DNA of 20,000 bases from Sanchytrium tribonematis (lineage: Eukaryota). The DNA lies in the NCBI GenBank assembly GCA_018985235.1, contig JADGIG010000007.1, positions 46,116 through 66,115 of the forward strand. Direction: 5' to 3'. Of the stretch, positions 316 through 19,619 are shown one piece after another. The notes under the pieces were generated by a model. It worked only from the letters and a program-made list of their open reading frames with translations. It did not search any database and was not told the DNA's origin. Every line of letters starts with the position of its first letter. Position 1 is the first letter of the stretch. Made by a program: the position numbers and the translations under genes.

Positions 316-1432
316 ATGCCAAGTGAGATAAAGTCTGTCTTGATTACGGGAGGAACTGGCTTTGTAGGCCGACACTTAGTAGATTATCTATTAGACTCAG
401 GAATTACTGATATCAAAGTAGTTGACAAGTCATTACCTTCATTGTCTTGGCTAAATGAAAAACACAAATCTGCCTTGGGCAAAGTGCAGTTCGTTCAAGC
501 AAATTTATGTTTAGACAGCGGCGTAGCAAAAGTTTTTGATAAAAGTTACGATTTGGTTGTAAACTTAGCCTCGGAAACTAAATATGGCCAATCAGAAGAA
601 ATTTATAAAGAAAAAGTCCTTGATGTGGCTCTGAGAATAGCTAATGCAGCCGTCGGAAAGACGAAGGTATTTGTAGAGCTTTCTACCGGACAGGTTTATG
701 ACCCAAAAGACAAGCCGGTAAAGGAAAGTGGAAAAACTAAACCTTGGACAAAATTAGCAGAGTACAAATTACAAACCGAACAAGAGCTCTCCAAATTAGA
801 CTTAAATTTAGTGATTTTAAGACCAGCCATTATCTATGGTGTTGCTGATATTTATGGAATTACTCCCAGACTCATTATTGGTAAAGTCTATCAGCACATC
901 AAGGAAACTATGGAATTGTTATGGACTGGTGATTTGGCAATCAACACGGTTCATGTTACTGATGTTGTCCGTGCTATTTTGTTCACAGCCAGATACCACA
1001 TGCAGAAATTAGCAAAGGGAGAAATTTACAATTTAGCAGACAAAAGTAATTCTACGCAAGAAACTATTAATGCTCTATTGCAAAATATTTTCGGTATTAA
1101 AACTTCGTTTGTTGGATCTGTTGCTTCTCAGTTCGCTAAATTGAATTTGACTACTGTTGTTCAAGATGTGAACGAAAAACACATGGCACCATGGAGTGAA
1201 TTGTTGAAGAAGGAAGATTTAAACAGTTTTTAATTTTCATTTAGGTCATCTGACTCCATATTTGGATAAGGAGCTGCTTTATAACCACAGTTTATCTATT
1301 GACGGGTCAAAAATTGAAGACTTGAAATTGGATGGGGAATCATTTAAACTTAAGCATCCAAACATCAATGAGGCGTTACTTAAAGAAGTTGTGGATGACT
1401 TTAAACAATGCAAATTATGGCCAAGTGCTTAG
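316..1432 (+). CDS. NAD-dependent epimerase/dehydratase (extended SDR); join(316..1225,1245..1432), 365 aa
   Basis: Rossmann motif TGGTGFVG, LRPAIIYG and VHVTDV. Removing 1226..1244 continues in frame as ...LNSHLTPYLDKELLYNHSLSIDGSKIE...KLWPSA* to TAG at 1430-1432. Confidence 0.9.
1226..1244 (+). other. 19-nt spliceosomal intron (phase 1), GTTTTTAATTTTCATTTAG
   Basis: GT..AG ends. Contains the in-frame TAA that ends the ORF-track ORF. Excision restores a continuous C-terminus. Confidence 0.85.
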
Positions 1433-1444
1433 GAATAAATTTGT

Positions 1445-1756
1445 TTATTCATTAGACAACAAAAGATCTGATGAATCAGCGTCAGGCAATTGCTCTTTTA
1501 AAGTAGCGTCTTTCTCCATTTCAAATGCAATAGGAAGTGCGACAAGAATCATCGAGGACGCCAATACATACCCAAATTGCCCAAGATAATACCCGAGTGA
1601 TTTTGCGTGATCTGTACCTACGGTAATTATTTTTTCCATTCTATATCTTTTCATTGGTGAAACAATATCTTTTAGCGCCACAATTCTTTGCAATATTGTT
1701 TCATTGAATTCATCGTAATCAATATCTAAACGAGAATCTTCTCTCTGTCCTTTCAT
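1445..1756 (-). CDS. TOM22: Mitochondrial import receptor subunit Tom22
   Basis: Acidic segment then ETILQRIVALKDIVSP, followed by a TM segment GYVLASSMILVALPIAFEME with the conserved Pro. Start placed at ATG 1756 because the upstream ATGs overlap MTG1. Confidence 0.85.
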   Translation of the reverse strand: MKGQREDSRLDIDYDEFNETILQRIVALKDIVSPMKRYRMEKIITVGTDHAKSLGYYLGQFGYVLASSMILVALPIAFEMEKDATLKEQLPDADSSDLLLSNE

Positions 1757-1792
1757 GATTGGTTTGAAGGGGTTCACAGTTGTACTCTTTAA

Positions 1793-2710
1793 ATGTTTAG
1801 TCCTAGTTGGCGTCGCTTGAATCATTTTCCGTTTGAACTGTACCAGAAACCCGTGCATTCGTACCCTGGACATATTTATAAAGCCAGGTGGGAGCTTAAG
1901 AAAATTCTAAATCTTAAAGACACTCATCATGTAATTATTGAAGTACGAGACTCACGGGTGGCCACGATCGTACACCCAGACTTGGAACTTAATTATAATA
2001 ACTGTAAAAAAATTGTTTTATTTAATAAGTTGGATCTTATTGATGATACTTCTATTGCCAGTCTAAAAAGGAGATATCCAGACGCGATATTTATTTCAAA
2101 AATAAGAAGTTCAATGATAGATAGCATTGTTGATGTTAAAAATTCGATTTTCTCCCTAATGAATTGCTCGGATGAAGATCAAATACATGAGTTACCCTTA
2201 AAAAGATTAGTTCATGTTGTTGGGTATCCAAACGTTGGGAAAACCACTATTGTCAATCAGCTAAGAACATTGGCTTTGAAAAAGGGAAAGCAAAGAACTG
2301 CGAATAGCCCCGGAACGACAAGAATGATAGAAAAATTGAGGTTTTTCGAAAATCCCAAAATAGATCTCGTCGATTTTCCCGGAGTACTAGTTCCTCCAAA
2401 AGAAATGAGCCCCGATGAATCTCTAAAATTGTGCCTTGTGAATTCTTGTACACTTTCTGAACCCAACTTGGAGCTTTTGGTCCATTTTCTGTTGTATCAT
2501 ATAAAATGCTACGATTCAATGGCTTTAAGTCATTTAAAGATACCATTCGACACCTCGTCTATTAATTTTGATGATATCATGGAGAGCGTTGCAAATAGCC
2601 ATGGGTTTCTAATCAAAGGAGGTAGACCAAATGTTCAAAAGGCGATGACTTTTATTTTAAATAAGTACCGATCGGGATCAATGACGAAAATTCCATTGAC
2701 TTCGGTCTAA
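1793..2710 (+). CDS. MTG1: Mitochondrial ribosome-associated circularly permuted GTPase (RbgA/YlqF family)
   Basis: N-terminal YPGH, EVRDSR, G4 NKLD before G1 GYPNVGKT, G2 PGTT and G3 DFPG; C-terminal YRSG. The N-terminus is basic and presequence-like. Confidence 0.88.
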   Translation: MFSPSWRRLNHFPFELYQKPVHSYPGHIYKARWELKKILNLKDTHHVIIEVRDSRVATIVHPDLELNYNNCKKIVLFNKLDLIDDTSIASLKRRYPDAIFISKIRSSMIDSIVDVKNSIFSLMNCSDEDQIHELPLKRLVHVVGYPNVGKTTIVNQLRTLALKKGKQRTANSPGTTRMIEKLRFFENPKIDLVDFPGVLVPPKEMSPDESLKLCLVNSCTLSEPNLELLVHFLLYHIKCYDSMALSHLKIPFDTSSINFDDIMESVANSHGFLIKGGRPNVQKAMTFILNKYRSGSMTKIPLTSV

Positions 2711-2789
2711 GCTTTATTCATTTCAATAAACGAATGCTCTTTTTTGCTCTTTTTTGAACTTGTAGCAATAATCTCCAGTTTCAATTCTA

Positions 2790-3729
2790 ATGGCAACTTC
2801 GCAAACAATCGAAGTAATTGAAGTCGCATTTTCCGGAGGCCAAGGCAGAGATGGAGTCGAGTTTGGACCAGAGACACTTATTAATCATGGTTTGTTAAAT
2901 CAACTAAAAGGTCTTGGTTACAACGTTCAACACAATAAGTCTTTTAAAAATATTCCTAAACCCGAAAACGATCCAATTGTTGCTGGCTGTAAAAATTCAA
3001 AGTATGTATCCGCTGCAAACAAGAGTCTTTTCTCTGCTGTTAAACAAGCTTGTGAAGTTCATAAAACTACACTTGTAATCGGCGGAGACCATTCACTTGC
3101 TATAGGCTCAATTGCAGGCTCCGCAGCAGTTTATCCTGATATCTGTGTTATTTGGGTTGATGCACATGCTGATATTAATACTCCAGATACCAGTGGTAGT
3201 GGGAATCTACATGGGTGTCCATTGTCCTTCTTATTAAAGCTGCCATCTACGGAAAAAGTACCAGAATTGAGTTGGGTCCCAAAATGTTTATCTCCAGACC
3301 GACTGGTGTATATTGGACTCAGAGATGTAGATGAAGGCGAAAGAAAAATTTTAAAAGAGCACAAAATCAAGGCTTTTAGCATGCATGATGTTGACAAATA
3401 TGGCATAGGAAGAGTTGTTGAAATGGCATTGGACCACGTCAATCCGAAAAGGGATCTTCCTATTCATATGTCGTATGATGTGGATGCTTTAGACCCTACA
3501 GTAGCGCCAGCAACTGGTATATCTAATTTATTTAGGAACACCTGTAAGAGGTGGTTTGACTTTCCGCGAGGGTCACTATATAGCAGAGGCTATAGCAGAA
3601 ACCGGGAAATTAGTTGTAATGGACATCATGGAAGTCAATCCAATTTTGGCAATTCAAAAAACCGACGAACCTACCGCGACTGTAGCTTGTTCTTTAATTC
3701 GAGCGGCATTTGGTGAAACGTTGCTTTGA
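2790..3729 (+). CDS. CAR1: Arginase; join(2790..3516,3536..3729), 306 aa
   Basis: GGDHS, DAHADIN, SGNLHG and SYDVDALDP motifs. After splicing it reads APATGTPVRGGLTFREG...MEVNP...FGETLL*. Confidence 0.96.
3517..3535 (+). other. 19-nt spliceosomal intron (phase 1), GTATATCTAATTTATTTAG
   Basis: Excision restores the arginase motif ATGTPVxGG with no residue gained or lost. Confidence 0.95.
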
Positions 3730-3738
3730 TTCATAAAT

Positions 3739-4143
3739 CTATAAAATATGAGTAACTTGGGGCTTTTTCTTCTTAAAAATTGTAAATCTAAATAGCGATA
3801 GCATAATTGTCACGATGGACGCAACGAAGTGGATGCATACAAATGCCAAATAATACTTATTCAACCAAAATTTAAGCTCTGCGTTTGTTGTAAAGTTCTC
3901 AATAAATTCTTGATATGTTATAGTCATGTACAATTCGTATCCAATAGACAACAATCCCGCGGCCAAGTACACATATTGAAAGGCTTTTTTCCCTTCAAAT
4001 ATAATTGCTATAGCAAATATTGTCAATAGCAGCATCCAACTCAAAGCTGTAAAGAAAAAGGTCTGATAAATGAATAGGCTGCTCCCTATTTGAAAAAAAT
4101 GCATCATGAAGAGAAGCATAGTATAAATTGCAGTTGTCGTCAT
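3739..4143 (-). CDS. Hypothetical small multi-pass membrane protein (about 4 TM segments)
   Basis: 134-aa ATG ORF with four hydrophobic stretches and a basic C-terminal tail (FKKKKP). It fills the gap between arginase and the next gene. No family recognised. Confidence 0.6.
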   Translation of the reverse strand: MTTTAIYTMLLFMMHFFQIGSSLFIYQTFFFTALSWMLLLTIFAIAIIFEGKKAFQYVYLAAGLLSIGYELYMTITYQEFIENFTTNAELKFWLNKYYLAFVCIHFVASIVTIMLSLFRFTIFKKKKPQVTHIL

Positions 4144-4254
4144 CTAATCACGATGGGTAGTCTGTGATCTTTTGATCTTAGGCAAATATTTGCTGCCAAT
4201 CACATCAACAAACAGAACCTTGGATGATTGCACAAATGTTTTTTGCAACAAACT

Positions 4255-5640
4255 ATGGAATTTTCCAATACTTCCATTTATGTAGATGAAGACTCAATTG
4301 ATTTCATGCATTTAAATGGATGGCGTTTCACTAACTGCATATTTCATGACATTCAGTTTGAAAATTCCGGACTTAATCGAATGAATGATGCTATTGTTAG
4401 TGTCACTAACCGAACAAGATCAAATGTACTTGAGTTGCGTACAAATGATGAGGTTGACATATATACAGGAGAACCAGAGGATGGAGGATTTTACGTCAAA
4501 GATTTGGCTTTCGTAAAAATTTGTCACACTATATACCTAGTTCCCAGAAATCAATGGAGATCCAAATTAAAGCATTTCGCAAGAAATAATCTATTTTTGT
4601 TTGATTTTACCGAAAAATTTCCATTTACCTTAGATTATTCACCGTCAGAGCCCGGAAATACTGCATTAATTTTAATGAGAAGAGAATTTGATGGTCTGCC
4701 TTTTTTACTGGAGCCCCTATCTTTATTAAGTTGTATCTTTAAAAATCTGAGAGTGGGAAGATACAACGTTACGCGGCAATTACAAAATAATGAACAAGCT
4801 ACATTACAAGGCATCAATAATGATATTATTTGGGAAATATTAGAGGAGTTGTTGGAAAATGACACGACGTCATTACTAAATTATCCCTCTAAGGTCCAGT
4901 CGCAGTTGACCAAGTTGCGGAAGTGGATTATTGATAACGCGCAAATAGTAGGTGCAGATATTAAAGTTCCTAAAATATTAGCCAAGGTTTCCATATCTCA
5001 GCTTAAGAAATTTTCTCTGTATTTATATGGAAAGAACCACTTCAATACATTGTATCCTATGTCTAGCTTAGTTTTACTAATAATTGAAAGTTTCGAATAT
5101 ATACTGGAGGAAGAAGTATCAAATGAGAAATCTTTATTACAAATATTCAACACTGAACCCTCAAAACTGATTGATTTTTCCATGAATAATACAAAATTGA
5201 GAAATTTGGCTTCTCACTTATTGTGTTTACCTCTTCCGGGTTGTGATTACAATACAAAAGTTTTATTGGAGACGGAGCATGAGCTCAAAATTAATCTAGA
5301 TTTTAATCAAAGGTCCAATTTTTTAGTATCACAGTGGTATTCATTGCTCTGCCAATACCAGTGTATTAACGACATTACTTCCGAAAGCACTTATATTTGG
5401 GAACGAATTCAAAAATATCTATGTAAATCTTTCGTTTCACCAAATTCAATAAGAGATATAGCACACAATTTTGCATCTTATTTGTCGACACCTCAAGTGG
5501 CATTGCCTAAAAAATTTGACAAAGTGATATTTGTTTTTGAGAACGGAATGAGTATCGATGAAGCCCACTCCTTAAAGGAAATTTCGAAAAAATACAGTTT
5601 GTCTGAACAACTTATATGCATTACTGACCAGATACTATAG
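4255..5640 (+). CDS. Divergent Sec1/Munc18-like protein, SCFD2/MIP3-like
   Basis: Long ORF, first ATG at 4255. The segments SIYVDEDSIDFMH, ALILMRREFD, LTKLRKWIIDNAQIVGADIK..KVSISQL and C-terminal VIFVFENGMSIDEA..LICITDQIL parallel SCFD2 motifs recalled from memory (VVYLD..LH, VVFVDRTLD, EVRRHLVEAA..LPIK..RVTPGQL, LFVVGGVTVSEV..VIVLSTRLL). Confidence 0.55.
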   Translation: MEFSNTSIYVDEDSIDFMHLNGWRFTNCIFHDIQFENSGLNRMNDAIVSVTNRTRSNVLELRTNDEVDIYTGEPEDGGFYVKDLAFVKICHTIYLVPRNQWRSKLKHFARNNLFLFDFTEKFPFTLDYSPSEPGNTALILMRREFDGLPFLLEPLSLLSCIFKNLRVGRYNVTRQLQNNEQATLQGINNDIIWEILEELLENDTTSLLNYPSKVQSQLTKLRKWIIDNAQIVGADIKVPKILAKVSISQLKKFSLYLYGKNHFNTLYPMSSLVLLIIESFEYILEEEVSNEKSLLQIFNTEPSKLIDFSMNNTKLRNLASHLLCLPLPGCDYNTKVLLETEHELKINLDFNQRSNFLVSQWYSLLCQYQCINDITSESTYIWERIQKYLCKSFVSPNSIRDIAHNFASYLSTPQVALPKKFDKVIFVFENGMSIDEAHSLKEISKKYSLSEQLICITDQIL

Positions 5641-5698
5641 TCTAAAAATAATTTACTCTATAATTAAAACTTCAATAAAAATCATTATCAAACAAGGG

Positions 5699-6136
5699 AT
5701 GAGATTTCCATCTGTACAATTATTAGCTAAAAAATACAACATAGATTTAAGCAAGGTCAAAGCAAGCGGATTCAAAAATTCTTTGAATAAGGGAGATATA
5801 TTATCATACATAGATCAAAATAATCTTTTACCAACTTTTAAATTGACAAATGACCATTCCGAATACTATCGTATATCACGAAATAGACGAGTAAGCCCAT
5901 TAGAAATTAATTCTTTTGAAAAATCGACAAATTCCAAGGTCAAGATTAGATATAACAATTATTCGTTTGCGGATATTCCGTTGCAATTACAAAAACAAAA
6001 TTGGTTTTCAATTTTAACAAGCCCCAAAAATCCAAAATATGAGCAGCCTAGCTCAGTTGAAACAATTTTGATGATTGACAGCCAATATAAGAATGTAGCA
6101 GAAGAGGTTTTTGTAGAACACAAAATAAAAAATTAA
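5699..6136 (+). CDS. Small protein with an N-terminal E3-binding (peripheral subunit-binding) domain; PDH protein X-like
   Basis: PSVQLLAKKYNIDLSKVKASGFKNSLNKGDILSYI matches the PSBD pattern PxxRxLxxExxIDLxxVxGTGxxGRIxKxDV. No lipoyl or acyltransferase domain is present. Confidence 0.65.
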   Translation: MRFPSVQLLAKKYNIDLSKVKASGFKNSLNKGDILSYIDQNNLLPTFKLTNDHSEYYRISRNRRVSPLEINSFEKSTNSKVKIRYNNYSFADIPLQLQKQNWFSILTSPKNPKYEQPSSVETILMIDSQYKNVAEEVFVEHKIKN

Positions 6137-6147
6137 GAAACCCTGAT

Positions 6148-7509
6148 ATGAAACTTGATTCTAAATCTAGCAAAATTTTTAGCAGGAGATATTTATTACG
6201 CCCTACTCAACTTGATTTAAGAATACTGGCACAGCAACCTAACTCATTGTGGGGCTTCTATGTACTATTTTGGTTTTCTGGAGTTCTATTAATTTGTTTG
6301 ACAATGTATAGTAATTTAAAGCTAGAGAAATCTATAATAGGATCTTACTTATTTAAATTAAGCTTGAGCAATTTTCCAGAGGTAGTTTTATTCGATTTGG
6401 TGATGGTTTTAAGTACCAGTTTTTGTTTTTTCTTACAAAAACTAATTGCTACTCAAACAATAAGCACAAAAGGGGGATCCTTTTTGCAAAGGGTTTTTGA
6501 AATTTCTTTTATTGGTTGTTTTAATTATTATATATATAAACAAAATTGGAATTGGGCAAGTTCTGGCGCAACTTGCGTACATTCTATAAGTATTTTGTTT
6601 AAGATGCACTCCTACAACATTGTGAACATTAGACTCATGGAGCAATACAACTTAAAAAAAAAGTTGATACAGGCGGAAAAAAAGGAAGATGCTAATGTAG
6701 CAGAGCAAATTGCCGAGATAGACAAAATACTTACAATAGAAGTTCCACACGACCTGGAATTTAATGGGTTTGATGCTTCACCAATTAGTGAAGAATCAGT
6801 GAAATTTAGGATATGTTATCCTGAAAATGTGAATATCTCAAATTTTGTAGACTATTTGATAGTTCCCACACTGTCATATGATATCGCGTATCCCAGAATG
6901 AAATATGTACGTCCTTTATACATTTTCGAAAAGGTGGTAGAGTTTATAGGCACGTGCTTCTGTTTATACGTAATTCTAGAGAACTACACAATCCCACCAT
7001 TTTCGGAATCACACAGGTCATTTGTTGATCTGCTACTAGTTTTATGTACGCCTTTCATGGCTTGCATGCTTCTCACATTCAATATTATCTTTGAAGTAAT
7101 TTGTAATGTATGTGCTGAGGTCACAAAATTTGCAGATCGCGGTAATTTTTACAGCGACTGGTGGAATAGTGTTAACTATTTAGAGTTTAGTAGAAAATGG
7201 AACAAACCCGTCCATAATTTTTTATTTCGACATGTGTACCTCGAATGTTTACAAGTGATGGGATTTTCAAAAGGTCTCTCAAGATTTATAACTTTTTTTA
7301 TTTCTGCACTATTTCATGAGCTAGTTTTTGTTGTACTTTTTAAAGAAATCAAATGGTACATGTTTGTAATTCAAATGCTCCAAATTCCATTAATAGCTTT
7401 TCAAGAACTCCCTCCGATTAAAAAATTTCCAGTCGCTGGTAACGTTCTATTTTGGTTTGGGATGTACTGTGGACTACCTTTATTATGTGTTGCATATAAC
7501 AAACTTTAA
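6148..7509 (+). CDS. ARE2: Sterol O-acyltransferase (MBOAT, ACAT/Are1-Are2 family)
   Basis: FKMHSY, YPENVNISNFVDYLIVPTLSY, FYSDWWNS, WNKPVHNFLFRHVY and the catalytic His in SALFHE; multiple TM segments. Confidence 0.88.
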   Translation: MKLDSKSSKIFSRRYLLRPTQLDLRILAQQPNSLWGFYVLFWFSGVLLICLTMYSNLKLEKSIIGSYLFKLSLSNFPEVVLFDLVMVLSTSFCFFLQKLIATQTISTKGGSFLQRVFEISFIGCFNYYIYKQNWNWASSGATCVHSISILFKMHSYNIVNIRLMEQYNLKKKLIQAEKKEDANVAEQIAEIDKILTIEVPHDLEFNGFDASPISEESVKFRICYPENVNISNFVDYLIVPTLSYDIAYPRMKYVRPLYIFEKVVEFIGTCFCLYVILENYTIPPFSESHRSFVDLLLVLCTPFMACMLLTFNIIFEVICNVCAEVTKFADRGNFYSDWWNSVNYLEFSRKWNKPVHNFLFRHVYLECLQVMGFSKGLSRFITFFISALFHELVFVVLFKEIKWYMFVIQMLQIPLIAFQELPPIKKFPVAGNVLFWFGMYCGLPLLCVAYNKL

Positions 7510-7518
7510 ACATAAAAT

Positions 7519-8076
7519 TTACTTTAAAATCAGTAAATGTCTTTTCTCTGTGTCCAGTTGCCTCTGAATATTCATTGCCTCAAAGACAAATAGACGAAAT
7601 TCTTCAATATCCAGTTCTTTGTTTCCACTGACATCAAATTCCTGATAAATTCTTTTCACTGCCTCATTTGAGAACCCGAACAAGTACCCTAAAGTAATAA
7701 ATTCTTGTCGCGATACAGATTTACCTCCGTCCTCGTCAAGTAACTCAAAGCAGGTCCTCCAATGGCGGTAAAGGAATGCCTGAGCTTCGCTGTGTTGGGT
7801 GGCAACCATTATACATACAAGAACATAAAACTCATTGAATTCAACCATGCCAGATTTGTCCAAATCAAAAATGTCAAATATATGACTTGCTTGATCAGGA
7901 CTAAGGTCAGTACATTCCAGTAGGAAGCTGCAGAATTGAATATCGTCTAACCCATCTTTATTGTTAAAATCTAATAAGTTGAAAATATCAAGTACTGCAC
8001 AAGCATTTTCAGCGCTTAGAACACAAAAAGATGGAATTATTTTCATTCTTTGTAGAAAAGTAGAAGTTATTTTCAT
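7519..8076 (-). CDS. EFCAB9: EF-hand calcium-binding domain protein 9 homologue (CatSper-associated Ca2+ sensor)
   Basis: EF-hand loops DLDKSGMVEFNE, DEDGGKSVSRQE and DVSGNKELDIEE. Non-loop segments FCVLSAEN, LDDIQFCSFLLECTDL, FYVLVCIMVA and FLYRHWRTCFELLD are colinear with human EFCAB9 as recalled. Start at ATG 8076, since ATG 8121 lies inside the Rac1 last exon. Confidence 0.85.
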   Translation of the reverse strand: MKITSTFLQRMKIIPSFCVLSAENACAVLDIFNLLDFNNKDGLDDIQFCSFLLECTDLSPDQASHIFDIFDLDKSGMVEFNEFYVLVCIMVATQHSEAQAFLYRHWRTCFELLDEDGGKSVSRQEFITLGYLFGFSNEAVKRIYQEFDVSGNKELDIEEFRLFVFEAMNIQRQLDTEKRHLLILK

Positions 8077-8105
8077 TGAAGTTGGTGTTTTAAAGTGCCA
8101 ATTTA

Positions 8106-8703
8106 TTACAAAATAATGCATTTTTTCTGGGCCTTCGCTTTTTGTGGAGGAGCAAGAACAGCACGGATAGCTAAATTAATAACAAGTACCTTCATCAAAG
8201 ACGTTTTTTAATCCTTTTTGGGTAAGAGCAGAGCACTCCAAATATTTAACACTTCCTATTTCTTTTGCCATTTGAAGCCCTTGTGGGTATGTAATTGGAG
8301 ACATTCTTTTCTCTCTCAACTTTTCAATTGTCTCTCTATCTTCTCTCAAATCCAGCTTAGTTCCTACTAGAATAATAGGGACTCCAGGTGCATGATGAGA
8401 TATTTCAGGATACCATTTGGTTCGAACATTTTCAAATGATGGGGGACTGACCAGTGAAAAACATATCAAAAACACATCTGTTTGAGGATAAGACAATGGC
8501 CGTAGACGATCATAATCTTCCTGACCAGCAGTATCCCATAATCCCAAATTAATCGGTTTTCCGTCAACCATCACATTAGCTGAGTAGTTATCAAAAACCG
8601 TAGGAATATACTCTCCTGGAAACGCATTTGTAGTATATGAAATTAATAAGCAGGTCTTTCCAACAGCTCCATCTCCAACAACAACACATTTTATAGCTTG
8701 CAT
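8106..8703 (-). CDS. RAC1: Rac1 small GTPase; complement(join(8106..8170,8190..8703)), 192 aa
   Basis: [40 protein letters not shown]. Splicing yields [25 protein letters not shown] with a polybasic region and CAAX box. Confidence 0.97.
8171..8189 (-). other. 19-nt spliceosomal intron (phase 1), GTACTTGTTATTAATTTAG
   Basis: Excision restores FDEAIRAVL and the CAAX terminus, giving the canonical 192-aa length. Confidence 0.96.
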
Positions 8704-8845
8704 TTTATGAAGACTGGTGTTTCAGATTATTTTGGAGAAATTTTCTACTCTCTATATGATAAAAAATGTTCTCTTTTTGGCTGATTAATAAGAATTTGAA
8801 TTATTTAAATTCGATCATAATCTTTTTTTTGAAATTCTTTTGTCC

Positions 8846-9857
8846 ATGTTTCGCCCTGATGAGATTCTTAATCAATTTTTATCCAATACAGGTCAGATAA
8901 CTAGCGACTGGGTCCTTCCAAGCTTTGGAGCTATTCCTAAAAAGACTCTACATACTCCTGATGATATAAATAAATGGAGCAAGAGTAAAGGCCTTGGCTT
9001 ATTATTGACAACCTTATTACAATTTACTGATTCTGTTGAAGGTGTGACTGAAATACCTGCTAAATTATCGGAAGAAACTAAAATTATTCTTGACTTCTTC
9101 CACAAGATTAATTTGATGACTTTAAAATTGGGAAATCAAGTAGAATCAAGCGACGACATCAGATTTGGGAATCCAAAGGTGATGGATCTTTACAAATGGA
9201 TTTATGACAACACTCCGGTACATTTAAACAGTTTATCTACTGTTAAAACAGCATTAAAAGAGGAACTATTTTATTATTTCAATAATTCATTTGGTTCATC
9301 TCGATTAGACTTTGGAAGTGGTCATGAACTTTCTTTTTTGGCATTTATGACTATTATTTATAAATCAAACGAAAACGCAGACTTTTCACGCGAGCTTGTT
9401 CTTGTGATTTACTCGCAATACATCACTCTGATCCGCGGCATCATTAAAATATTTCATTTAGAGCCTGCAGGTACTACTATCTTAATTAGGGAGTCATGGA
9501 GTGTGGGGAGTTGATGATTATTACTTATTACCATACTTATTAGGTGCCTCACAATTATGCAACTCAAGGCTAAAGCCATCGGATATCCACAATCCCGAAA
9601 TTTTATCACATTTTCAAACTAAAGATACAAAATTATATTTATATTTCGATGCTATAAGATATATAAAGAGTAACAAAACTGGACCATTTTTCGAGCATTC
9701 GCCCATGCTCAATGATATTTCAAATTCAAAAAATTGGGTCAAGGTAAGACAGGGAATGTTGCGCTGGTATATCATGGAATGCTGCACTAAATTTGTAGTT
9801 GTACAACACTTCTTCATGGGTCAAATTTTTACTCTCGAAGAATATGTGCGAAAGTAA
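8846..9857 (+). CDS. PP2A phosphatase activator PTPA (Rrd1/Rrd2 family); join(8846..9470,9490..9857), 330 aa
   Basis: RFGN and SFGSSRLDFGSGHELSF. After splicing it reads LEPAGSHGVWGVDDY, then KTGPFFEHSPML and KFVVVQHF. Confidence 0.93.
9471..9489 (+). other. 19-nt spliceosomal intron (phase 1), GTACTACTATCTTAATTAG
   Basis: Excision restores the PTPA signature EPAGSHGVW exactly. Confidence 0.96.
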
Positions 9858-9909
9858 ATTGGTTTTGTACTTTTTGTGATGTGAACTTTTTAAGGAGTAA
9901 ACACAAAAT

Positions 9910-10476: not shown

Positions 10477-10516
10477 TAGTATTTATAGACACTCAATAAT
10501 AAATTCAGTGCAATTG

Positions 10517-11245: not shown

Positions 11246-11283
11246 CAAATTTAATATATAGCAGTAATTTCAAGGAGTTGCAA

Positions 11284-13198
11284 ATGTTAAATTATTTGTC
11301 TGCGGCTTTTAACGCATTTGGTATAGGCAATTTTAAAAGCCAAGTAGTTGGCACTCTCTATGAAAAAATCAACAAGCTATCTGTAAAATTCAAAGATTGC
11401 GAGTTAGAAGTTCAACAGCATTCAAATAATCTTTATCAGTTGGTTATCAGCAAAATTTATGATCAAGATGAAGAGTTTTCAGATTTTGATGAGTATGTTA
11501 TCCTTCTTCGCTCTGAAATAGAATTAAAAGAGACTTCGGGAGGCTTCACTTGGATTGATGATGGGATTGAAATGGTTTTTATGACAAAAGACTCCAGTAT
11601 CCTTCAAAAGCTTCAAAATCACATAAATATTTATGAGGATGATAAAATGAAAAGCAAGTCAATTTATATTGAAAGTGCTCAAAATACGGCTCCTTTAAAT
11701 ATATCTGGAGACGTCATGCTCTCTTGCGGTATTAATTTATTTACCTTTAACGTGAAAGATTCACTATTTGAGCCAATATCAGAAAAAGAATTCAAATTAG
11801 AAGTCGTAAAAAGTCAAACAGGATCTTTTATGAAAATCAGTGGCGAACATGACATCTGCACCAAAATTGAACATTCTATGAATCCCTACTTCAGTCAAGA
11901 AAAGTGGTGCTTTTTGTGGAACCATTTTGATAAAGTCTTGGTGAGTATGGCGGCTGTCTTCTCACCTAAGGATTACTCAACGTTTAGATCCATACTACAG
12001 AGAGTCTTAATTGAACAACAAAATCTGTTAATCACTCCAGATGAGATCCAGTACGCTCAGTCTGCTCTAATTGCTGAAGATATGGCATATGAAGAAGGAG
12101 TTACTGCAGATGATAGCTCTAGCTCTGAGACTGAGTCCGAGCCTGATTTGATCGGAGAGGCCAATGTTGCAAAAGATAGAAATAACAAGCTTACAACTTC
12201 TCTCAGAAATTATAAAGCATTTGTTAGCAGGGGTGATAAAATTGACTCGTACGACACAAATTCTAAAGTTCAGAAATTAAGGACAAATTCTTCCAATTTT
12301 ACTCCTGACAACATACATCTGCATGAAAATGAACGGAAGCTTCTAATGTTTGACAAAAATCGCGTCTCTTCTATGGATTTGGAGACCGGAAAAGTGGTTG
12401 AGGAATGGGATGCTCCTAAAAATTTGAGAGGAATTAGTTCTTTGACCAAATCGTCTCAATTAACCAATGAACAACAATTTTATGGAATAACCAATAATGA
12501 TGTGTTACTAATGGACCCTCGATCAAGAAATTTGGCTTCACAGACCACATCTTACAAGTCAAACCCAAATTTCACTGCAATTAAGACAGGCGGCAAGGAT
12601 GATCAGATTGCAGTGGCAAATGAGCAAGGAGAACTCAAATTATACAACAAGTTAGGAATTCGTGCTAAGACAAATCTAAAGCTAGCTGGAGGTATTTATT
12701 TTTAATGAAGAACCAATATTAAGTTTAGATATATCAGAGAATGGGGCTTGGATAGTAGCGACTTGCAAGACTTTTCTAATGTTGATAGAGGCTGATCACG
12801 AATCCACAAGTGGTTTTTCAAAATCAATTCCAGTTAAACACAGGAAACCACCTATTAGACTTACCATTCGACCTGATCATGCAATGCAGCTAGGCCTTCA
12901 GAAAGTCAATTTTACTCCGGCCAGATTTGATACAATTAATGGCAAGGAAGAGAAATACATCGTAAGTAGCACAGGAAATTATCTTATAGCATGGTCGCTA
13001 AAGAAAGCGAAGTTAGGTAGGAATGATTATCAAATCAAAAAATATTCAGAAACAATAGTCGGAGAACAATTTCACAAACCAGGACAAGTTGTCGTGGCCT
13101 TATCGAATCAATTGGTACTAGCCAACAAACGAAATTTTATGACCCCAAAAAAGATTTTTGCGGATCGTGACAGCGTCACTAAATCTTATAATAAATAA
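11284..13198 (+). CDS. VID27: Vid27/CYPRO4-like protein; join(11284..12691,12711..13198), 631 aa
   Basis: MDLETGKVVEEW, DPR and GELKLYNKLGIRAKT. After splicing it reads GEPILSLDISENGAWIVATCKTFLMLI, then FTPARF and IVSSTGNYLIAW. Confidence 0.9.
12692..12710 (+). other. 19-nt spliceosomal intron (phase 1), GTATTTATTTTTAATGAAG (AAG acceptor)
   Basis: Excision joins the two ORF-track pieces in frame and restores the Vid27 G[DE]PI motif. Contains an in-frame TAA. Confidence 0.9.
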
Positions 13199-13201
13199 TT
13201 A

Positions 13202-13888
13202 CTAACTTAATAATTTTTTTATTTCGTTCCTATTCAAAGGAACCGCTGGACTTTGCGTTGATTTGATAAAAATTTGCTTAATAAAATTATTTTCCAGTGT
13301 GGTTCCACTGAGCTCATTAACATATTTAAACAAGGAAGAAAGATTACTCTTGATTTTTTGAAAATCCAAATTAGTGTCACCCAATACAACATCAACTATG
13401 CCATTATTGTCTATCATTTTGGAAGATTTCCTAGAAATATCGATGGCCGCTTGAAGGTCTCTAGTCACTGTACCTTTCTTGGTGCTCGGCATTAAATTTT
13501 TTGTACCAAGATATTTACCCAATTTGGTGAGTTCTTTAAAGTTGCTTTCATAACAAATCAAGTTTGTAAATTCATGTTTAGACACATCATCCAAATCAGA
13601 TATTTTAATTTCAGCATCAGTCTTATTTATAACATCCAGTGGCCCATACACCGCTACAACTGATTTTTTCGCTTTAAAATATTCCAGAGGGAGTGTACTA
13701 GTCAATTTTATCCTTTTGAACATTTTTGTATTGTACATAAAAGTCACATTTACCACTTCAGTATCAGTCGCGAAAGCCTTGACCATCAAGTAAGCATCCT
13801 CGATGGTCGCGTTTGGTTTATCTAACTTCTTCAGAAGTCTACTTCTGCTCCTGTGTCCACGTAATAAATTAAATTTTCGAAGAAACAT
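13202..13888 (-). CDS. MRPL1: Mitochondrial ribosomal protein uL1m
   Basis: LGKYLGTKNLMPSTKKGTV and IKQIFIKSTQSPAVPL match L1 motifs. The Arg-rich N-terminus MFLRKFNLLRGHRSRSR looks like a presequence. First ATG at 13888. Confidence 0.85.
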   Translation of the reverse strand: MFLRKFNLLRGHRSRSRLLKKLDKPNATIEDAYLMVKAFATDTEVVNVTFMYNTKMFKRIKLTSTLPLEYFKAKKSVVAVYGPLDVINKTDAEIKISDLDDVSKHEFTNLICYESNFKELTKLGKYLGTKNLMPSTKKGTVTRDLQAAIDISRKSSKMIDNNGIVDVVLGDTNLDFQKIKSNLSSLFKYVNELSGTTLENNFIKQIFIKSTQSPAVPLNRNEIKKLLS

Positions 13889-13903
13889 GGAGGTTTTCAA
13901 AAT

Positions 13904-15766: not shown

Positions 15767-15810
15767 AAATTTAAAGGTCACGTCGCTAAAAAGTTACAGT
15801 TTATTTTGAT

Positions 15811-18040
15811 TCAATTGGCCGACCCTGGAGTTCTAAGCTCTATCACACAGTCATCGGATATAGTTTCAGGAAGTAAAGGAATATCTTTAGACTCAAAAAT
15901 TTTGTCAAAATTTTCAATCAAGAATGTCACAAAGTCATTTGGCTGATTGTCGAAAAAATTGTTAGGATCGTCCTTGAGCTTTATAAGTGTTGGCCCAAAA
16001 ACAATGCCGATATTCCTAGGATTCATTTTATTATATTCTTCAAAAGAAGCTACCCTAAATTAGATCAATTTACCTTTGCAGATGTTGAATAAGGTAGTAT
16101 AATGTATAGTAATGAGATGGTAGTAATTTTTTAATGGAATTTTTAAAAAAGATTAACGAATCATCGGAAGGTTTAGGTTCCTTGAGAATATATACTGTTG
16201 TTTCATATATGTCTGTAGAAATAAGTGGGATTTTCAAATCTCGGAAATAAGCTTTTAAAAGAGACGATACTGAAAGAACGTCGATGAGATCATGCGCCAT
16301 GTCAATGGTGTTACCTTGTTCCCACTCATCTTGCATATTCTTCATTTCCTTCATCGCACCAGCCCTTCGATAAATTCCCTCAGTTTTTAAACCTTTTTCA
16401 TCAACAACTCTCAAACAAGCAGTTACAATATTAGGAATTGGTTTGCCCTCGAAGTCCGCTCTTTCTTGCAAAAATCCACCGAAGAGGACAACTTTTTGTT
16501 TCTTTAACTTAGCAATAGCCAAGCCTTTCAATTGTTTTGCACGCAAAGATCCCTCCATGAGTCTTAAAGTTTTAGCTCTGTTAATATCTTGTGGTTGATC
16601 GTCTTCATCTTGTTTTTGCTTTTTGATAAGATTATTTGCTTTGTCTCTCCAAAACTCTTTCTTGCCTTTATCTTCAGCTAAATTACTGTTTGAAACATTC
16701 TCGAGACTTTCCCTAGAGCCTTTGGCGTCTATATCATGTTCTCTTGGTGATTCAGGACTTGTTGGTTGCTGAAATTTTTCAGATTTTTTAGCTGTACTTA
16801 CTACTTCATTTTGTCTGAACTTACAGACTTCGTATTCCTTTACTTTTTCACGAATTTCTGTCAGAATTGTGGCTTTGTCGGCAATCAAGGATTTAATTTC
16901 GCTAGTTAAAGTATTTTTTTGCTCTTCCAATGGTGCCAGTAACGATAACAATTTCGCTATTTCGGAGTCGGATGCGATAACTCCATTTTCAGCTCTCTTT
17001 CTCAACATTTCTTGTAAGACTTTACACTGCTTCTCAGACTGATTTCTCAAATTTTCCTCATATTTAGAGTCAGATTTTTGTTTTTCAAGTTCTGAAAGCT
17101 TGACATGCAATTCACCAATGAGTAGCTCATATTTGAGCTTCAAATTATTGTAATCGGAGGACTTGTCTTCTTTTTCTTTAGCTATAATTTCATGTTGTTT
17201 TTTTATTCCACTGATATTTATTTCCAACGACCTTAATTTCTCCAAGTCAAACCTATGCTCTTCTCTTTCTTTATCCAAATCTTTTACTACTTTAATAAAT
17301 TCGTTGTCCAAAGTTGATAATTGCATTTGAAGCCTAGAGACTTTTTCTAATTGGATTTGTAAGGATATTTCTAAATCTTTCTTTGATTGAGTTAATTGCT
17401 TGAGTTCTTTGCCAATTTCTGAATTAAAAGAACTCAGTTGCTGTTTCGTTTTGGTTTCTGACTCGGCAGTGTTTTTAAATCCCGATAATTGTAGTTCATA
17501 AGAATGAATTATTTGTCTTGATTCATCAAGTTGTTTTTCAACTTGAATTTTAGACTGTCTTACCAACATTAATTCATCTTTTAGCTCTTGCAACTGGTCT
17601 TCCAAGTAGGATTTAGTTTGCTGAAGTTCTGAAAATTCCTCAATTGTGCAAGAATTTTTTTTCAATTCATCAAGATGATACAATGCTTCTCTGTATCGAA
17701 CTTTCTCTAATTCCATGCTATGTTTATAATGATCGAAATCCTCTAAAGCCTTACGACTCAAGTCTTTCAATTTTTTCAGCTGTTCTTGGAGCTCTATATT
17801 CAAGGCTTGTGATTTTTGAAGTTCTTTTTTAGCATGTTCGTGCTCCTCATTGCGAGATTGCTTCGGAACCTCTGTTGTTTTAAGAAAACTCATCATATCT
17901 TCTTCCAAAGAGCCAATATTGATGTTCATATTCAAATCATTAGCTTTGAAGTTTGTACTTTGAATATCATTTATATGTGATTTCGACTTTCTAGCAGTAG
18001 ATGCGCTAGTTGAAGACCTTTTGACAGGTTTTTCTTCCAT
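15811..18040 (-). CDS. Coiled-coil protein with C-terminal RhoGAP domain; complement(join(15811..16054,16074..18040)), 736 aa
   Basis: IPNIVTAC, EGIYRRAG (arginine finger) and LLKAYFRDLKIPL. After splicing it reads HLQRVASFEEYNKMNPRNIGIVFGPTLI. Long heptad-rich N-terminal region. First ATG at 18040. Confidence 0.9.
16055..16073 (-). other. 19-nt spliceosomal intron (phase 2), GTAAATTGATCTAATTTAG
   Basis: Excision restores the RhoGAP HLxRV..NKMxxxNxxIVFGP spacing. Contains a textbook CTAAT branch motif. Confidence 0.95.
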
Positions 18041-18092
18041 GATTAAAAAGCCACGAGTCTCAAATTTTTTAATATGGAGAAACTTTGAAATA

Positions 18093-18410
18093 ATGTCACA
18101 AACCAAGCTACAAAAGCGAGAAATAACTCAACTAAAGAAAAATATACTACAATCTGAGAGTAAGATTTCGGAAGAAAAACGGCTACGAGATTTTACCCCA
18201 GACTTGATAAATGAAGAGATACAAAAATGGACGAATATCATATTGGATGTATATTTGGAAATTAAATCTTTTTTATTGGATGACCAGGTTACAGAATTAA
18301 AAGACTATATTAATCGATATTGCATTTCTAATGATTTGAGATTGCTTGCCTCAGAATTGGGGTTTGTAGAATCGGAAAATGACTCCGATCGTAATTCAGT
18401 CGTAGAATAA
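18093..18410 (+). CDS. Small coiled-coil protein, possibly Sfr1/Mei5 family
   Basis: ATG at 18093, 105 aa. A coiled coil followed by LINEEIQKWTNIILDVYLEI...LKDYINRYCIS resembles the Sfr1/Mei5 C-terminal L..LI.KW pattern. Assignment tentative. Confidence 0.4.
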   Translation: MSQTKLQKREITQLKKNILQSESKISEEKRLRDFTPDLINEEIQKWTNIILDVYLEIKSFLLDDQVTELKDYINRYCISNDLRLLASELGFVESENDSDRNSVVE

Positions 18411-18415
18411 ATAAT

Positions 18416-19619
18416 TTATTCAATTTTCAAATCCTTCAAATTCATTTCCCACGGAAACTCTTCTCTGCCAAAATGCCCATAAGCCGCGGTTTTTTGATAA
18501 ATAGGCTTAGTTAATCCAAACTCTTGTACAATTTTACCCGGTCTTAGATCATAGTTTTTCTTAATTGTACTTAAGAGCTGGCTGTTGCTATATTTTGAAG
18601 TACCATAAGTATCGATAAAAATAGAAACAGGTTCAGCCACACCAATTGCGTATGAAACTTGAACCAACGCCCTTCTAGCCAATTTTGAATTAACAATTGA
18701 TTTTGCAACATGTCTAGCAGCATATGCAGCAGATCTATCTACTTTTGACCAGTCTTTCCCTGAAAAAGCGCCGCCACCATGTGCACCCCTAAATAAAAAT
18801 AATGTACCAACCACCATAAGTATCTACAATGATTTTTCTACCAGTAAGCCCGGCGTCTCCTTGTGGCCCTCCTATTACGAATCTTCCAGAAGGTTGTAAG
18901 TGGAATTTGGTTTTTGCATCTAAATATTTCTCTGGAACTACCGGTTTAACAATTTGTTCCAATAAATCTTTCCTTAGCTGTTCAACCTTAACAGTATCCG
19001 TGTGTTGCGTTGAAATAACTACAGCATCGACTCTTAATGGGATACATGCACCATTGTCCATTGTATATTCAACTGTAACCTGAGTTTTAGTATCAGGTAA
19101 TAAATAAGGAATAGAACCGTCTTTTCTACACTTTTCTAATTGCATATTGAGTTTGTGGGCCAATGTCATAGAAAGAGGCATTAATTCAGGAGTCTCGTCG
19201 GTGGCATATCCGAACATAATTCCTTGATCGCCAGCACCAATTTTTTCAATGTCGAAACCTTCTTGAACAAGTCCCTGTGCAATGTCTGGAGATTGCTCTT
19301 CAATAGCAACTAAAACATTGCAAGTTTTGTAGTCAAAGCCAAAGTCGGAGTCAGTATATCCAATATCCTTGATTACAGCTCGAATGACTTTCTGGTAGTC
19401 CAATCTAGTCTTTGTATTGATTTCTCCGAAAACCATTACCATTCCCGTCTTGGTTGCAGTTTCGCAAGCGACCTTGCTGTACGGATCTTCCTTTAAACAA
19501 GCGTCTAAAATGGCATCGCTAATTTGGTCGCAAATCTTATCAGGGTGGCCTCTGCCGACGGATTCACTAGTGAATAAAAAGGTTTCGTTTGATGTAGCAG
19601 TCATGTGTGTAGAATGCAT
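18416..19619 (-). CDS. SAM2: S-adenosylmethionine synthetase; complement(join(18416..18788,18808..19619)), 394 aa (alternative start 19604)
   Basis: FTSESV..GHPDK, GAGDQG and [17 protein letters not shown]. After splicing it reads [18 protein letters not shown], then YGHFGR. Confidence 0.97.
18789..18807 (-). other. 19-nt spliceosomal intron (phase 2), GTACATTATTTTTATTTAG
   Basis: Excision restores the conserved [17 protein letters not shown] exactly. Confidence 0.97.

What the first reader, a model, noticed from the sequence alone, without database searches (positions are those of the whole stretch)
1226..18807. Invariant T12-N-A14 in all seven introns: branch point fixed 6 nt from the 3' end
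Seen in sequence: ungapped stacking of GTTTTTAATTTTCATTTAG, GTATATCTAATTTATTTAG, GTACTTGTTATTAATTTAG, GTACTACTATCTTAATTAG, GTATTTATTTTTAATGAAG, GTAAATTGATCTAATTTAG and GTACATTATTTTTATTTAG gives T at position 12 and A at position 14 in 7/7, while positions 4-11 vary. The consensus is GT(A)N8-T-N-A-(TTT)-AG. Established knowledge: the U2-type branch consensus is yUnAy, and Stentor's tiny introns also have a conserved A 6 nt from the 3' end. Inference: A14 is the branch adenosine, giving a 14-nt lariat loop with branch site and acceptor fused and no polypyrimidine tract. U1 and U2/SF3b could hardly bind at the same time, which implies altered spliceosome assembly convergent with ciliates.
Basis: partly seen in the sequence, partly recalled or inferred. 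Interest (0 to 1): 0.85.

Follow-up and report, generated by a model that had tools for sequence, protein, structure and literature searches.

The report
Nineteen-base introns with fixed branch-like adenosine
Seven genes in this very compact, sanchytrid-like fungal DNA are each split by a 19-base intron that always has T at base 12 and A at base 14, and that A is likely the branch point of splicing, which would add a fungal lineage to the few organisms known to have introns this small.

Summary
Observation confirmed. All seven 19-nt GT..AG strings lie at the stated coordinates. Removing each one restores a conserved protein. T12 and A14 are 7 of 7.

An all-A column arises in 0.3% of within-intron shuffles and an invariant T-N-A pair in 0.01%. 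Only 9 of 104 non-intron GT-N15-AG 19-mers in the window carry both bases (Fisher p = 3e-7). T12 alone is not significant.

The nearest named relative is the sanchytrid fungus Amoeboradix gromovi. Public ORF-only models of the window and its relatives stop inside these introns. Back-reading those peptides gives eight orthologous introns of 19, 20 and 21 nt. A at -6 holds in 4 of the 4 where it can be read, including the 20- and 21-nt ones, so the A is measured from the 3' end.

The branch-point reading is plausible but untested, because no RNA run or genome was available. It matches Stentor (A at -6) and Yarrowia spacing. The relatives' published annotation lists U1-70K, U2AF, SF1/BBP and SF3B1, so factor loss is not supported.

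The parts
1226..1244 (+). 19-nt intron in an NAD-dependent epimerase-family gene (phase 1). T12 = 1237, A14 = 1239. The 5' end is the atypical GTTTTT.
   Evidence: Only one GT and one AG are available between the last aligned exon-1 residue and exon 2. The exon-2 peptide (1247-1429) aligns to homologue C-termini just after the exon-1 match, for example P0166 318-371 at E 7e-14.
3517..3535 (+). 19-nt intron in the arginase gene (phase 1). T12 = 3528, A14 = 3530. It also holds CTAAT at positions 7-11.
   Evidence: Pfam Arginase profile positions 3-224 fall in exon 1 and 224-277 in exon 2.
8171..8189 (-). 19-nt intron in a Rac/Rho-type GTPase gene (phase 1). T12 = 8178, A14 = 8176.
   Evidence: The Ras domain lies in exon 1. 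Splicing yields a 21-aa tail ending in the CAAX box CIIL.
9471..9489 (+). 19-nt intron in the PTPA gene (phase 1). T12 = 9482, A14 = 9484.
   Evidence: PTPA profile positions 1-182 fall in exon 1 and 182-292 in exon 2. Three relatives, including A. gromovi, have ORFs that break at the same codon.
12692..12710 (+). 19-nt intron in the VID27 gene (phase 1). T12 = 12703, A14 = 12705.
   Evidence: VID27 profile positions up to 184 fall in exon 1 and 190-347 in exon 2. The window's own public model P0002 ends inside the intron. P0004 breaks at the same site, P0003 reads through a 21-nt insert there, and A. gromovi P0005 is continuous.
16055..16073 (-). 19-nt intron in a RhoGAP gene (phase 2). T12 = 16062, A14 = 16060. 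CTAAT lies at positions 11-15.
   Evidence: RhoGAP profile positions 1-120 fall in exon 1 and 120-146 in exon 2.
18789..18807 (-). 19-nt intron in the S-adenosylmethionine synthetase gene (phase 2). T12 = 18796, A14 = 18794.
   Evidence: Splicing rebuilds the motif [18 protein letters not shown]. C-domain profile position 23 is followed by 24. Relatives P0043, P0044 and P0045 break at the same codon, and A. gromovi P0046 is continuous.

Best explanation
The seven 19-nt GT..AG inserts are genuine introns, and their invariant A six bases before the 3' end, with T two bases upstream, is likely the branch adenosine of a weak yUnA(y) branch site anchored to the acceptor.

Shown:
- The inserts interrupt conserved genes, and removing them restores the proteins.
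- Length is 19 nt in 7 of 7.
- T12 and A14 are invariant beyond what the AT-rich background gives.
- In related genomes the same sites hold introns of 19, 20 and 21 nt, with A at -6 wherever it can be read.

Inferred:
- The organism is a sanchytrid (Sanchytriomycota) or a close relative.
- An essentially canonical U2-type spliceosome removes the introns.
- U6/U1 would read the GTA at the 5' end.
- U2 with SF1/SF3b would read the U-rich stretch around positions 9-15 and bulge out A14, giving a 14-nt lariat loop.
- The AG three bases after the TTT would be taken as the first AG downstream.
- Nearly every base then belongs to a signal, so length would be held at 19-21 nt by the minimum span between the 5' splice site and the branch, plus a fixed branch-to-AG spacing.
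For: Introns are real.

Invariance and statistics:
- Column table and shuffles: all-A column 0.3%, invariant T.A pair 0.0095%.
- Within-window control: 9 of 104 non-intron GT-N15-AG 19-mers carry T12 and A14, against 7 of 7 introns (p = 3e-7).

Context: position 11 is C/T in 7/7, position 15 is T in 6/7, and positions 15-17 are T in 6/7 each.

Relatives. Eight orthologous introns were read back from ORF-only protein models.
- SAM synthetase: P0043 (..WYLLFI*), P0044 (..WYTLLM*) and P0045 (..WYFLFNLGEHMAVV.., which is 20 nt).
- VID27: P0004 (19 nt) and P0003 (21 nt, read through in frame as GTFSTYL).
- PTPA: P0163, P0164 (A. gromovi) and P0165 (19 nt).
- The base at -6, or position 14, can be read in 4 of the 8 and is A in all 4. 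These include the 20-nt and 21-nt introns, while positions 5-10 have changed.
- Position 12 can be read in 5 of the 8. It is T in 4 and A in the 21-nt intron, which favours a 3' anchor.

Precedent:
- The Stentor putative branch A is at -6.
- The Yarrowia branch motif plus 2 nt plus AG also puts the A at -6. The -6 figure is my count from the spacing stated in the paper.

[quoted passage not shown] For A. gromovi they also list SF3B1, BBP/SF1, the U2AF small subunit, a K12837 entry, PRP8 and BRR2.
Against: - No RNA or lariat evidence. No RNA run was listed and no genome is held, so neither excision nor the branch nucleotide was observed.
- Only 7 introns from one 20-kb window.
- T12 alone is within chance: at least one invariant column arises in 31% of shuffles.
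- Every intron has other A residues at positions 4-10 or 13. The arginase intron has a better fungal-type CTAAT at positions 7-11, which would put the branch A at position 10.
- The relatives' introns are orthologous to the window's, so they are not independent draws.
- The base at -6 could not be read in 4 of the 8 relatives: a Leu, a Ser and a stop codon third base, and one ORF that stops too early.
- The length of the P0043 and P0044 introns is assumed to be 19 nt, not shown.
- Two coding-strand decoys fit GT-N9-T-N-A-N3-AG (16678-16696(-) in RhoGAP and 13313-13331(-) in the L1 gene). They cannot be spliced without breaking the reading frames, so the motif is not sufficient.
- Pairing of the U-rich region to the canonical U2 branch-binding sequence would be weak, and the lineage's U2 snRNA was not available.
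Confidence: 0.6

Rival explanations
1. The T-N-A-TTT-AG block is an extended 3' splice-site signal, read by a protein or at the second catalytic step. Branching would occur at another, variable A further upstream, or at A13 where one is present.
For: All seven introns have other A residues at positions 4-10 or 13. The arginase intron has a canonical CTAAT at positions 7-11. Five of the 7 share the hexamer ATTTAG, so A14 may belong to the acceptor context. The relatives keep a U2AF small subunit, which reads the acceptor.
Against: No other position holds an A in all introns. A branch at positions 7-10 would make an even smaller loop. T-N-A with a pyrimidine on each side fits the general branch consensus. 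The same -6 spacing is assigned to the branch A in Stentor and follows from the Yarrowia consensus.
Confidence: 0.22
2. The invariance is a chance product of seven short, AT-rich sequences, or of choosing introns by eye.
For: T makes up 59% of inner positions. At least one invariant column arises in 31% of shuffles. The sample is only seven.
Against: - An all-A column arises in 0.3% of shuffles and a T.A pair in 0.0095%.
- Only 9 of 104 control 19-mers carry both bases.
- The introns were validated by protein restoration, independently of their inner sequence.
- A at -6 recurs in 4 of the 4 readable orthologous introns in other genomes.
Confidence: 0.04
3. The inserts are removed without a lariat, for example by hydrolytic first-step cleavage or another non-canonical route, and A at -6 serves some other contact.
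For: Authors writing on the equally small B. natans nucleomorph introns find lariat formation hard to imagine (PMC6009652, passage). Only 12 nt separate G1 from A14.
Against: Relatives keep the branch-recognition factors BBP/SF1 and SF3B1. The termini and exon context are those of U2-type introns (G at exon position -1 in 6 of 7). Stentor has even shorter introns with a fixed A.
Confidence: 0.08
4. The 19-mers are not introns. They would be assembly or amplification artefacts, frameshift sites or pseudogene lesions.
For: The published sanchytrid genomes came from whole-genome amplification of single sporangia (PMC8371127, passage). No transcript evidence is available here.
Against: All seven are exact GT..AG units of one length, and their removal restores seven conserved proteins. 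Breaks occur at the same codons in independent assemblies from other sources (ENA, NCBI, Logan, EukProt). Exon 2 sequences are conserved.
Confidence: 0.02

Closest known systems
Tiny introns of the heterotrich ciliate Stentor coeruleus, 15-16 nt (PMC9505925, passages read; the primary genome paper PMC5659724 is not held)
   Same: GT(A)...AG termini, a U-rich interior, a very narrow length range and a near-invariant A six bases from the 3' end (position 10 of 15, position 11 of 16). Canonical spliceosomal proteins are retained.
   Different: Here the introns are 19 nt (19-21 in relatives), which gives a 14-nt loop rather than a 10-nt one. There is also a T at -8. The lineage is a fungus, so any likeness would be convergent.
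Bigelowiella natans nucleomorph introns, 18-21 bp (PMC6009652 and PMC10245619, passages; the primary paper PMC1480447 is not held)
   Same: The same length class with 19 as the typical value, AT-richness, GT-AG ends and an extremely gene-dense genome.
   Different: Those introns are reported to have no discernible branch adenosine and no motif beyond GU-AG. Here A at -6 is invariant. The window carries ordinary nuclear genes of a heterotroph (arginase, Rac, RhoGAP, Tom22, a mannosyltransferase), and its nearest relatives are fungi. It is not a nucleomorph.
Mikrocytid (Mikrocytos mackini, Paramikrocytos canceri) introns of 16-17 nt (PMC10245619, abstract and passages)
   Same: Uniform, extremely short introns with conserved sequence in a reduced parasite genome.
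   Different: Those are 16-17 nt and occur in Rhizaria with a strongly reduced spliceosome (17-19 proteins). None of them lies in a metabolic enzyme gene. Here arginase and SAM synthetase carry introns, and the relatives list many spliceosomal factors.
Branch sites anchored to the acceptor in Yarrowia lipolytica, Trichomonas vaginalis and Giardia lamblia (PMC2483917, passages)
   Same: No polypyrimidine tract and a fixed branch-to-AG distance. The Yarrowia spacing (branch motif, 2 nt, AG) puts the branch A at -6, as here. That count is mine, taken from the stated spacing.
   Different: Those species have a strong ACTAAC-type motif and introns of ordinary length. Here the motif is only yUnA(y) and the whole intron is 19 nt.
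Very short (26-29 nt) introns noted by this scan in Rozella allomycis-like DNA (notes e1-7126408 and e1-9781287, unchecked AI notes)
   Same: An early-diverging, parasitic, fungus-related lineage with a compact genome and unusually short introns.
   Different: Those introns are 26-29 nt and variable in length, and the lineage is different. I did not examine that DNA.

Membership tests
U2-type (GT-AG) spliceosomal intron | GT at the 5' end and AG at the 3' end | tested here: met
   7 of 7.
U2-type (GT-AG) spliceosomal intron | Removal restores a continuous, conserved reading frame | tested here: met
   7 of 7. Pfam continuity holds for arginase, PTPA, VID27, SAM synthetase and RhoGAP. Rac gains its CAAX tail. 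The epimerase exon 2 aligns to homologue C-termini.
U2-type (GT-AG) spliceosomal intron | Branch-site-like yUnAy shortly upstream of the acceptor | tested here: met
   yUnA in 7 of 7 and yUnAy in 6 of 7 at positions 11-15. This tests the motif only, not its function.
U2-type (GT-AG) spliceosomal intron | Excision from RNA through a lariat branched at the conserved A | not testable with these tools
   No RNA run was listed and no genome is held.
U2-type (GT-AG) spliceosomal intron | The organism has the U1/U2 recognition machinery | tested here: inconclusive
   Not testable on the window itself, where Rfam finds no snRNA. [quoted passage not shown] For A. gromovi they also list SF3B1, BBP, the U2AF small subunit, a K12837 entry, PRP8 and BRR2. 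SLU7, PRP18 and K11095 were not found, but the stored file is cut short.
Ultra-short fixed-length intron systems (21 nt or less: nucleomorph, heterotrich, mikrocytid) | All or nearly all introns fall in a window of 1-4 nt below about 22 nt | tested here: met
   The window has 7 of 7 at 19 nt. Relatives with a readable length have 19, 19, 20 and 21 nt. Only 20 kb was examined, so the genome-wide picture is untested.
Stentor-type tiny introns | Length of 15-16 nt | tested here: not met
   19 nt here. It works alike (A at -6) but is not the same class or lineage.
Chlorarachniophyte nucleomorph introns | Located in a nucleomorph genome, with no discernible branch A | tested here: not met
   The gene content and nearest relatives are fungal. 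A at -6 is invariant.

The most novel reading that the evidence does not exclude
Sanchytrid fungi carry a genome-wide population, perhaps thousands, of 19-21-nt introns. These would be the shortest in any opisthokont nuclear genome. A largely canonical spliceosome splices them by measuring the branch adenosine 6 nt from the 3' end. This would be a fourth independent origin of introns below 22 nt. It has gone unnoticed because the published proteomes are plain ORF calls that stop inside the introns.
Probability: 0.45. Interest if true: 0.8.

Novelty: new member of a known kind. Interest (0 to 1): 0.62.

Why it matters
Introns of 21 nt or less are known from three unrelated settings: chlorarachniophyte nucleomorphs, heterotrich ciliates and mikrocytids. 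How a spliceosome can assemble on them is unsolved.

A fungal lineage with uniform 19-nt introns, a readable candidate branch signal and apparently canonical U1, U2AF, SF1 and SF3b factors would give a fourth, independent case. It lies close to the yeasts in which splicing is best understood.

There is also a practical point. The window's own public models (P0002, P0042, P0162) and those of relatives end inside the introns. If 7 of about 19 genes is typical, roughly a third of the ORF-called sanchytrid proteins would be truncated or split. That would affect gene counts and the gene-loss inferences drawn from them.

Tried and rejected
RNA and genome access:
- RNA evidence: the look-up of sequencing runs listed no RNA holder, so read laying could not be used.
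- Whole genome: none is held for this window.

More DNA from relatives:
- A VID27 alignment (A1) found no related locus in metagenome, genome or viral contigs.
- A degenerate DNA pattern for a tiny intron at the SAM-synthetase site matched the window. It matched nothing in metagenome, genome or viral contigs.

Non-coding RNA: Rfam and tRNA scans of the window found nothing, so no snRNA is available.

Further intron candidates from the ORF-joining scan:
- 7504-7522(-) would run into the MBOAT gene on the other strand.
- 18127-18150(-) lies upstream of the RhoGAP start in sequence that translates as noise.
- 1782-1800(+) overlaps the start codon of the GTPase gene.
- All three were rejected.

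Alternative readings tested:
- Stop-codon selection as the reason for T-N-A. Only 2 of the 5 phase-1 introns read TAA at positions 12-14, so this was rejected.
- U12-type introns. Rejected on the 5' ends, judged against a consensus that I recalled rather than tested.

Literature and earlier notes:
- The primary papers on Stentor (PMC5659724) and the B. natans nucleomorph (PMC1480447) are not held.
- Earlier notes of this scan held nothing for this genome, no look-alike stretches and no note with sanchytrid names.


Full report
**What is there**

The window is 20 kb of AT-rich (about 35% G+C), very gene-dense eukaryotic DNA. It reads with the standard genetic code. Pfam assigns the ORFs to:
- an NAD-dependent epimerase,
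- Tom22,
- an MMR_HSR1 GTPase,
- arginase,
- an E3-binding-domain protein,
- an MBOAT acyltransferase,
- an EF-hand protein,
- a Rac/Rho GTPase,
- PTPA,
- a Gar1/Naf1-like protein,
- VID27,
- an L1-family ribosomal protein,
- a Mannosyl_trans3 enzyme,
- a RhoGAP,
- S-adenosylmethionine synthetase.

Several ORFs have no family. That makes about 19 genes, with spacers as short as 11 nt.

**Checking the observation**

Each is a real intron.
- Exon pieces on either side continue the same Pfam profile without loss. Arginase goes from 224 to 224, PTPA from 182 to 182, VID27 from 184 to 190, the SAM-synthetase C domain from 23 to 24, and RhoGAP from 120 to 120.
- In-silico splicing rebuilds [18 protein letters not shown] in SAM synthetase and gives Rac a CAAX end.
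- The 61-residue peptide after the atypical GTTTTT intron of the epimerase aligns to the C-termini of its homologues immediately after the exon-1 match. The best case is P0166, residues 318-371, E 7e-14. Sixty subject proteins were reported.

A scan for any GT/GC..AG insert of 14-60 nt that joins an ORF of at least 40 codons to one of at least 15 codons gave no further convincing intron. The few tempting extras were rejected on context. In-frame 18- or 21-nt introns without stops, and introns in the first 40 codons, would escape that scan.

The column table shows T12 and A14 in 7 of 7. A3, T6, T15, T16 and T17 are 6 of 7 each. The remaining inner positions vary.

**Is it more than chance?**

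Inner positions are 59% T and 30.5% A.
- Shuffling positions 3-17 within each intron 200,000 times gives at least one invariant column in 31% of trials. T12 on its own therefore proves nothing.
- An all-A column arises in 0.3% of trials and an invariant T-N-A pair in 0.0095%.
Of the 104 other GT-N15-AG 19-mers on both strands, 50 have T12, 24 have A14 and 9 have both, against 7 of 7 introns. Fisher gives p = 3e-7. Against the 17 equally AT-rich controls, 4 of which have both, p = 1e-3.

The signal is real for A14 and for the pair.

**Whose DNA**

- Exon 1 of VID27 finds three relatives at 46-51% identity, then fungi at 24-37% (Paraphysoderma, Geosiphon, Powellomyces, Spizellomyces, Boothiomyces, Basidiobolus and others).
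- One relative, P0005, is EukProt EP00835, Amoeboradix gromovi.
- SAM synthetase gives the same picture. Relatives are at 87-90%, A. gromovi at 88%, and then the Blastocladiomycota (Paraphysoderma, Allomyces, Coelomomyces) at 76-77%.
- The A. gromovi VID27 and SAM-synthetase ORFs sit on one contig, as they do in the window.

I infer that the window comes from a sanchytrid or a close relative.

The sanchytrid genome paper (PMC8371127) predicted proteins as TransDecoder ORFs from the contigs. In its main text the word 'intron' occurs only in the reference list (passages). In its held supplements it occurs once, in an eggNOG description of a mitochondrial group I intron factor. One supplementary PDF could not be read.

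Library searches pairing sanchytrid names with 'intron' returned 2 and 6 papers, none about nuclear introns judging by their titles and abstract openings. A search on the two genus names alone returned 27 papers, of which 25 were listed, and none is about introns either. In PMC10459994 the word occurs only in the reference list. A search on ultra-short or tiny introns in fungi found nothing relevant. I therefore found no description of these introns in print. That statement rests on those searches alone.

**Independent look at relatives**

No related DNA could be fetched. However, the protein collection holds ORF-only models that run into the introns, and codon structure lets part of the intron be read back.

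The window's own public models end inside the introns: P0002 ends ..LAGGIYF, P0042 ends ..GGWYIIF I, and P0162 ends ..EPAGTTILIRESWSVGS.

At the SAM-synthetase site (phase 2):
- P0043 ends WYLLFI* and P0044 ends WYTLLM*. These give T at position 12 and A at position 14. They fit 19 nt if the stop codon is TAG.
- P0045 reads WYFLFNLGEHMAVVHFPEK... Its tail is exon 2 out of frame, which fixes the intron at 20 nt, with A at -6 and C/T at -8.

At the VID27 site (phase 1):
- P0004 (GGIYYLFREIDCC) fixes a 19-nt intron whose positions 12-14 form a Leu codon. The base at -6 cannot be read.
- P0003 reads through a 21-nt in-frame intron (GTFSTYL). Its Tyr codon puts A at -6, while position 12 counted from the 5' end is A.

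At the PTPA site (phase 1):
- A. gromovi P0164 ends EPAGIFH*, so the stop codon occupies positions 12-14 and T12 is certain.
- P0165 fixes a 19-nt intron with a Ser codon at positions 12-14.
- P0163 stops too early to say anything.

In sum:
- The base at -6, or position 14, can be read in 4 of 8 relatives' introns and is A in all 4.
- Position 12 can be read in 5 of 8. It is T in 4, with the exception in the 21-nt intron.
- Positions 5-10 have diverged among the orthologues.

The A therefore keeps its distance from the 3' end as length changes, which is what a 3'-anchored signal predicts.

These introns are orthologous to the window's, so this is evidence of constraint rather than an independent sample. 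A. gromovi lacks the VID27 and SAM-synthetase introns but has the PTPA one, so introns have been gained or lost within the group.

**How it most likely works**

This part is inferred.
- Exon context (G at -1 in 6 of 7) and the GTA start are those of U2-type introns.
- No intron has G at +5.
- Positions 11-15 read y-T-N-A-T, the loose branch consensus.
- TTT and AG follow directly, so there is no polypyrimidine tract beyond three T.

I propose that A14 is the bulged branch adenosine. The first AG downstream would then be used, and the lariat loop would be 14 nt.

Precedents:
- In Stentor the putative branch A is at position 10 of 15-nt introns (90.9% of all introns) and at position 11 of 16-nt introns (5.0%). 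Both are -6 (PMC9505925).
- Yarrowia, Trichomonas and Giardia anchor the branch motif 2 or 4 nt from AG and lack a polypyrimidine tract (PMC2483917). By my count the Yarrowia spacing also puts the A at -6.
- The equally long B. natans nucleomorph introns are reported to have no discernible branch A (PMC6009652).

The published eggNOG tables list:
- U1-70K for both sanchytrids;
- for A. gromovi, SF3B1 (E 5e-227), BBP/SF1 (E 2e-14), a U2AF small-subunit match, a K12837/KOG0120 entry (which I recall as the U2AF large subunit), PRP8, BRR2 and cactin.

SLU7, PRP18 and K11095 were not found, but the stored file is cut short. So the parts list looks canonical. How U1 and U2 could sit 12 nt apart remains as open here as in the other tiny-intron systems.

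**Against the branch reading**
- Neither excision nor branching was observed.
- Every intron has other A residues.
- The arginase intron has a textbook CTAAT at positions 7-11.
- Two coding-strand strings fit the pattern but cannot be spliced (16678-16696(-) and 13313-13331(-)). The motif is therefore not sufficient, and something else, perhaps overall U-richness and the GTA start, contributes.

**Verdict**

The branch-point interpretation is the best available at about 0.6, and it is not shown.

This appears to be a fungal lineage with uniform 19-21-nt introns that its published ORF-only annotation overlooks. That makes it a new member of the known kind 'ultra-short, fixed-length spliceosomal introns'. 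In its -6 adenosine it is closest to Stentor, and in length closest to the chlorarachniophyte nucleomorph.

Noticed in passing
window 1226-18807 (all seven introns): All seven introns lie in the last 37% of their coding sequences, at relative positions 0.63-0.89. Five are phase 1, two are phase 2 and none is phase 0. Under a uniform position model the chance is about 1e-3, calculated post hoc. Intron-poor yeasts show the opposite, a 5' bias. My scan would miss introns in the first 40 codons, but every gene has a plausible start codon without one.
   Followed up: partly
window 11284-12705, 18789-19619, 8846-9514: The public protein models of the window itself (P0002 at 473 aa, P0042 at 276 aa, P0162 at 222 aa) are plain ORFs that end inside the introns. 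VID27, SAM synthetase and PTPA are therefore truncated in the database. Relatives show the same truncation.
   Followed up: yes
window 5640-5696, 6136-6148, 8105-8175: Gene packing is extreme. There are about 19 genes in 20 kb. The spacer is 55 nt between the 470-aa ORF and the E3-binding gene, and 11 nt between that gene's stop and the MBOAT start. The Rac 3' end runs into the stop-to-stop frame of the EF-hand gene.
   Followed up: partly
window 16678-16696 (-) and 13313-13331 (-): Two coding-strand 19-mers fit GT-N9-T-N-A-N3-AG, and one ends AATTTAG like real introns. They lie inside the RhoGAP and L1-family reading frames, where splicing would break the frame. The motif alone therefore does not define an intron.
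   Followed up: partly
relatives P0005, P0046, P0164 (A. gromovi) compared with window 12692-12710, 18789-18807, 9471-9489: Intron presence varies within the group. A. gromovi has continuous VID27 and SAM-synthetase ORFs, but its PTPA ORF breaks at the same codon as in the window.
   Followed up: partly
relative P0003 (VID27, ENA contig): A 21-nt intron at the VID27 site is a multiple of three and holds no stop codon. An ORF caller therefore reads straight through it and adds seven residues (GTFSTYL).
   Followed up: partly
window, intron positions 4-6 of all seven introns: None of the seven 5' splice sites has G at +5. The sites read GTA followed by C/T/A, then T/A, then T, or GTTTTT in one case. 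By my recall the usual fungal forms are GTAAGT and GTATGT.
   Followed up: no
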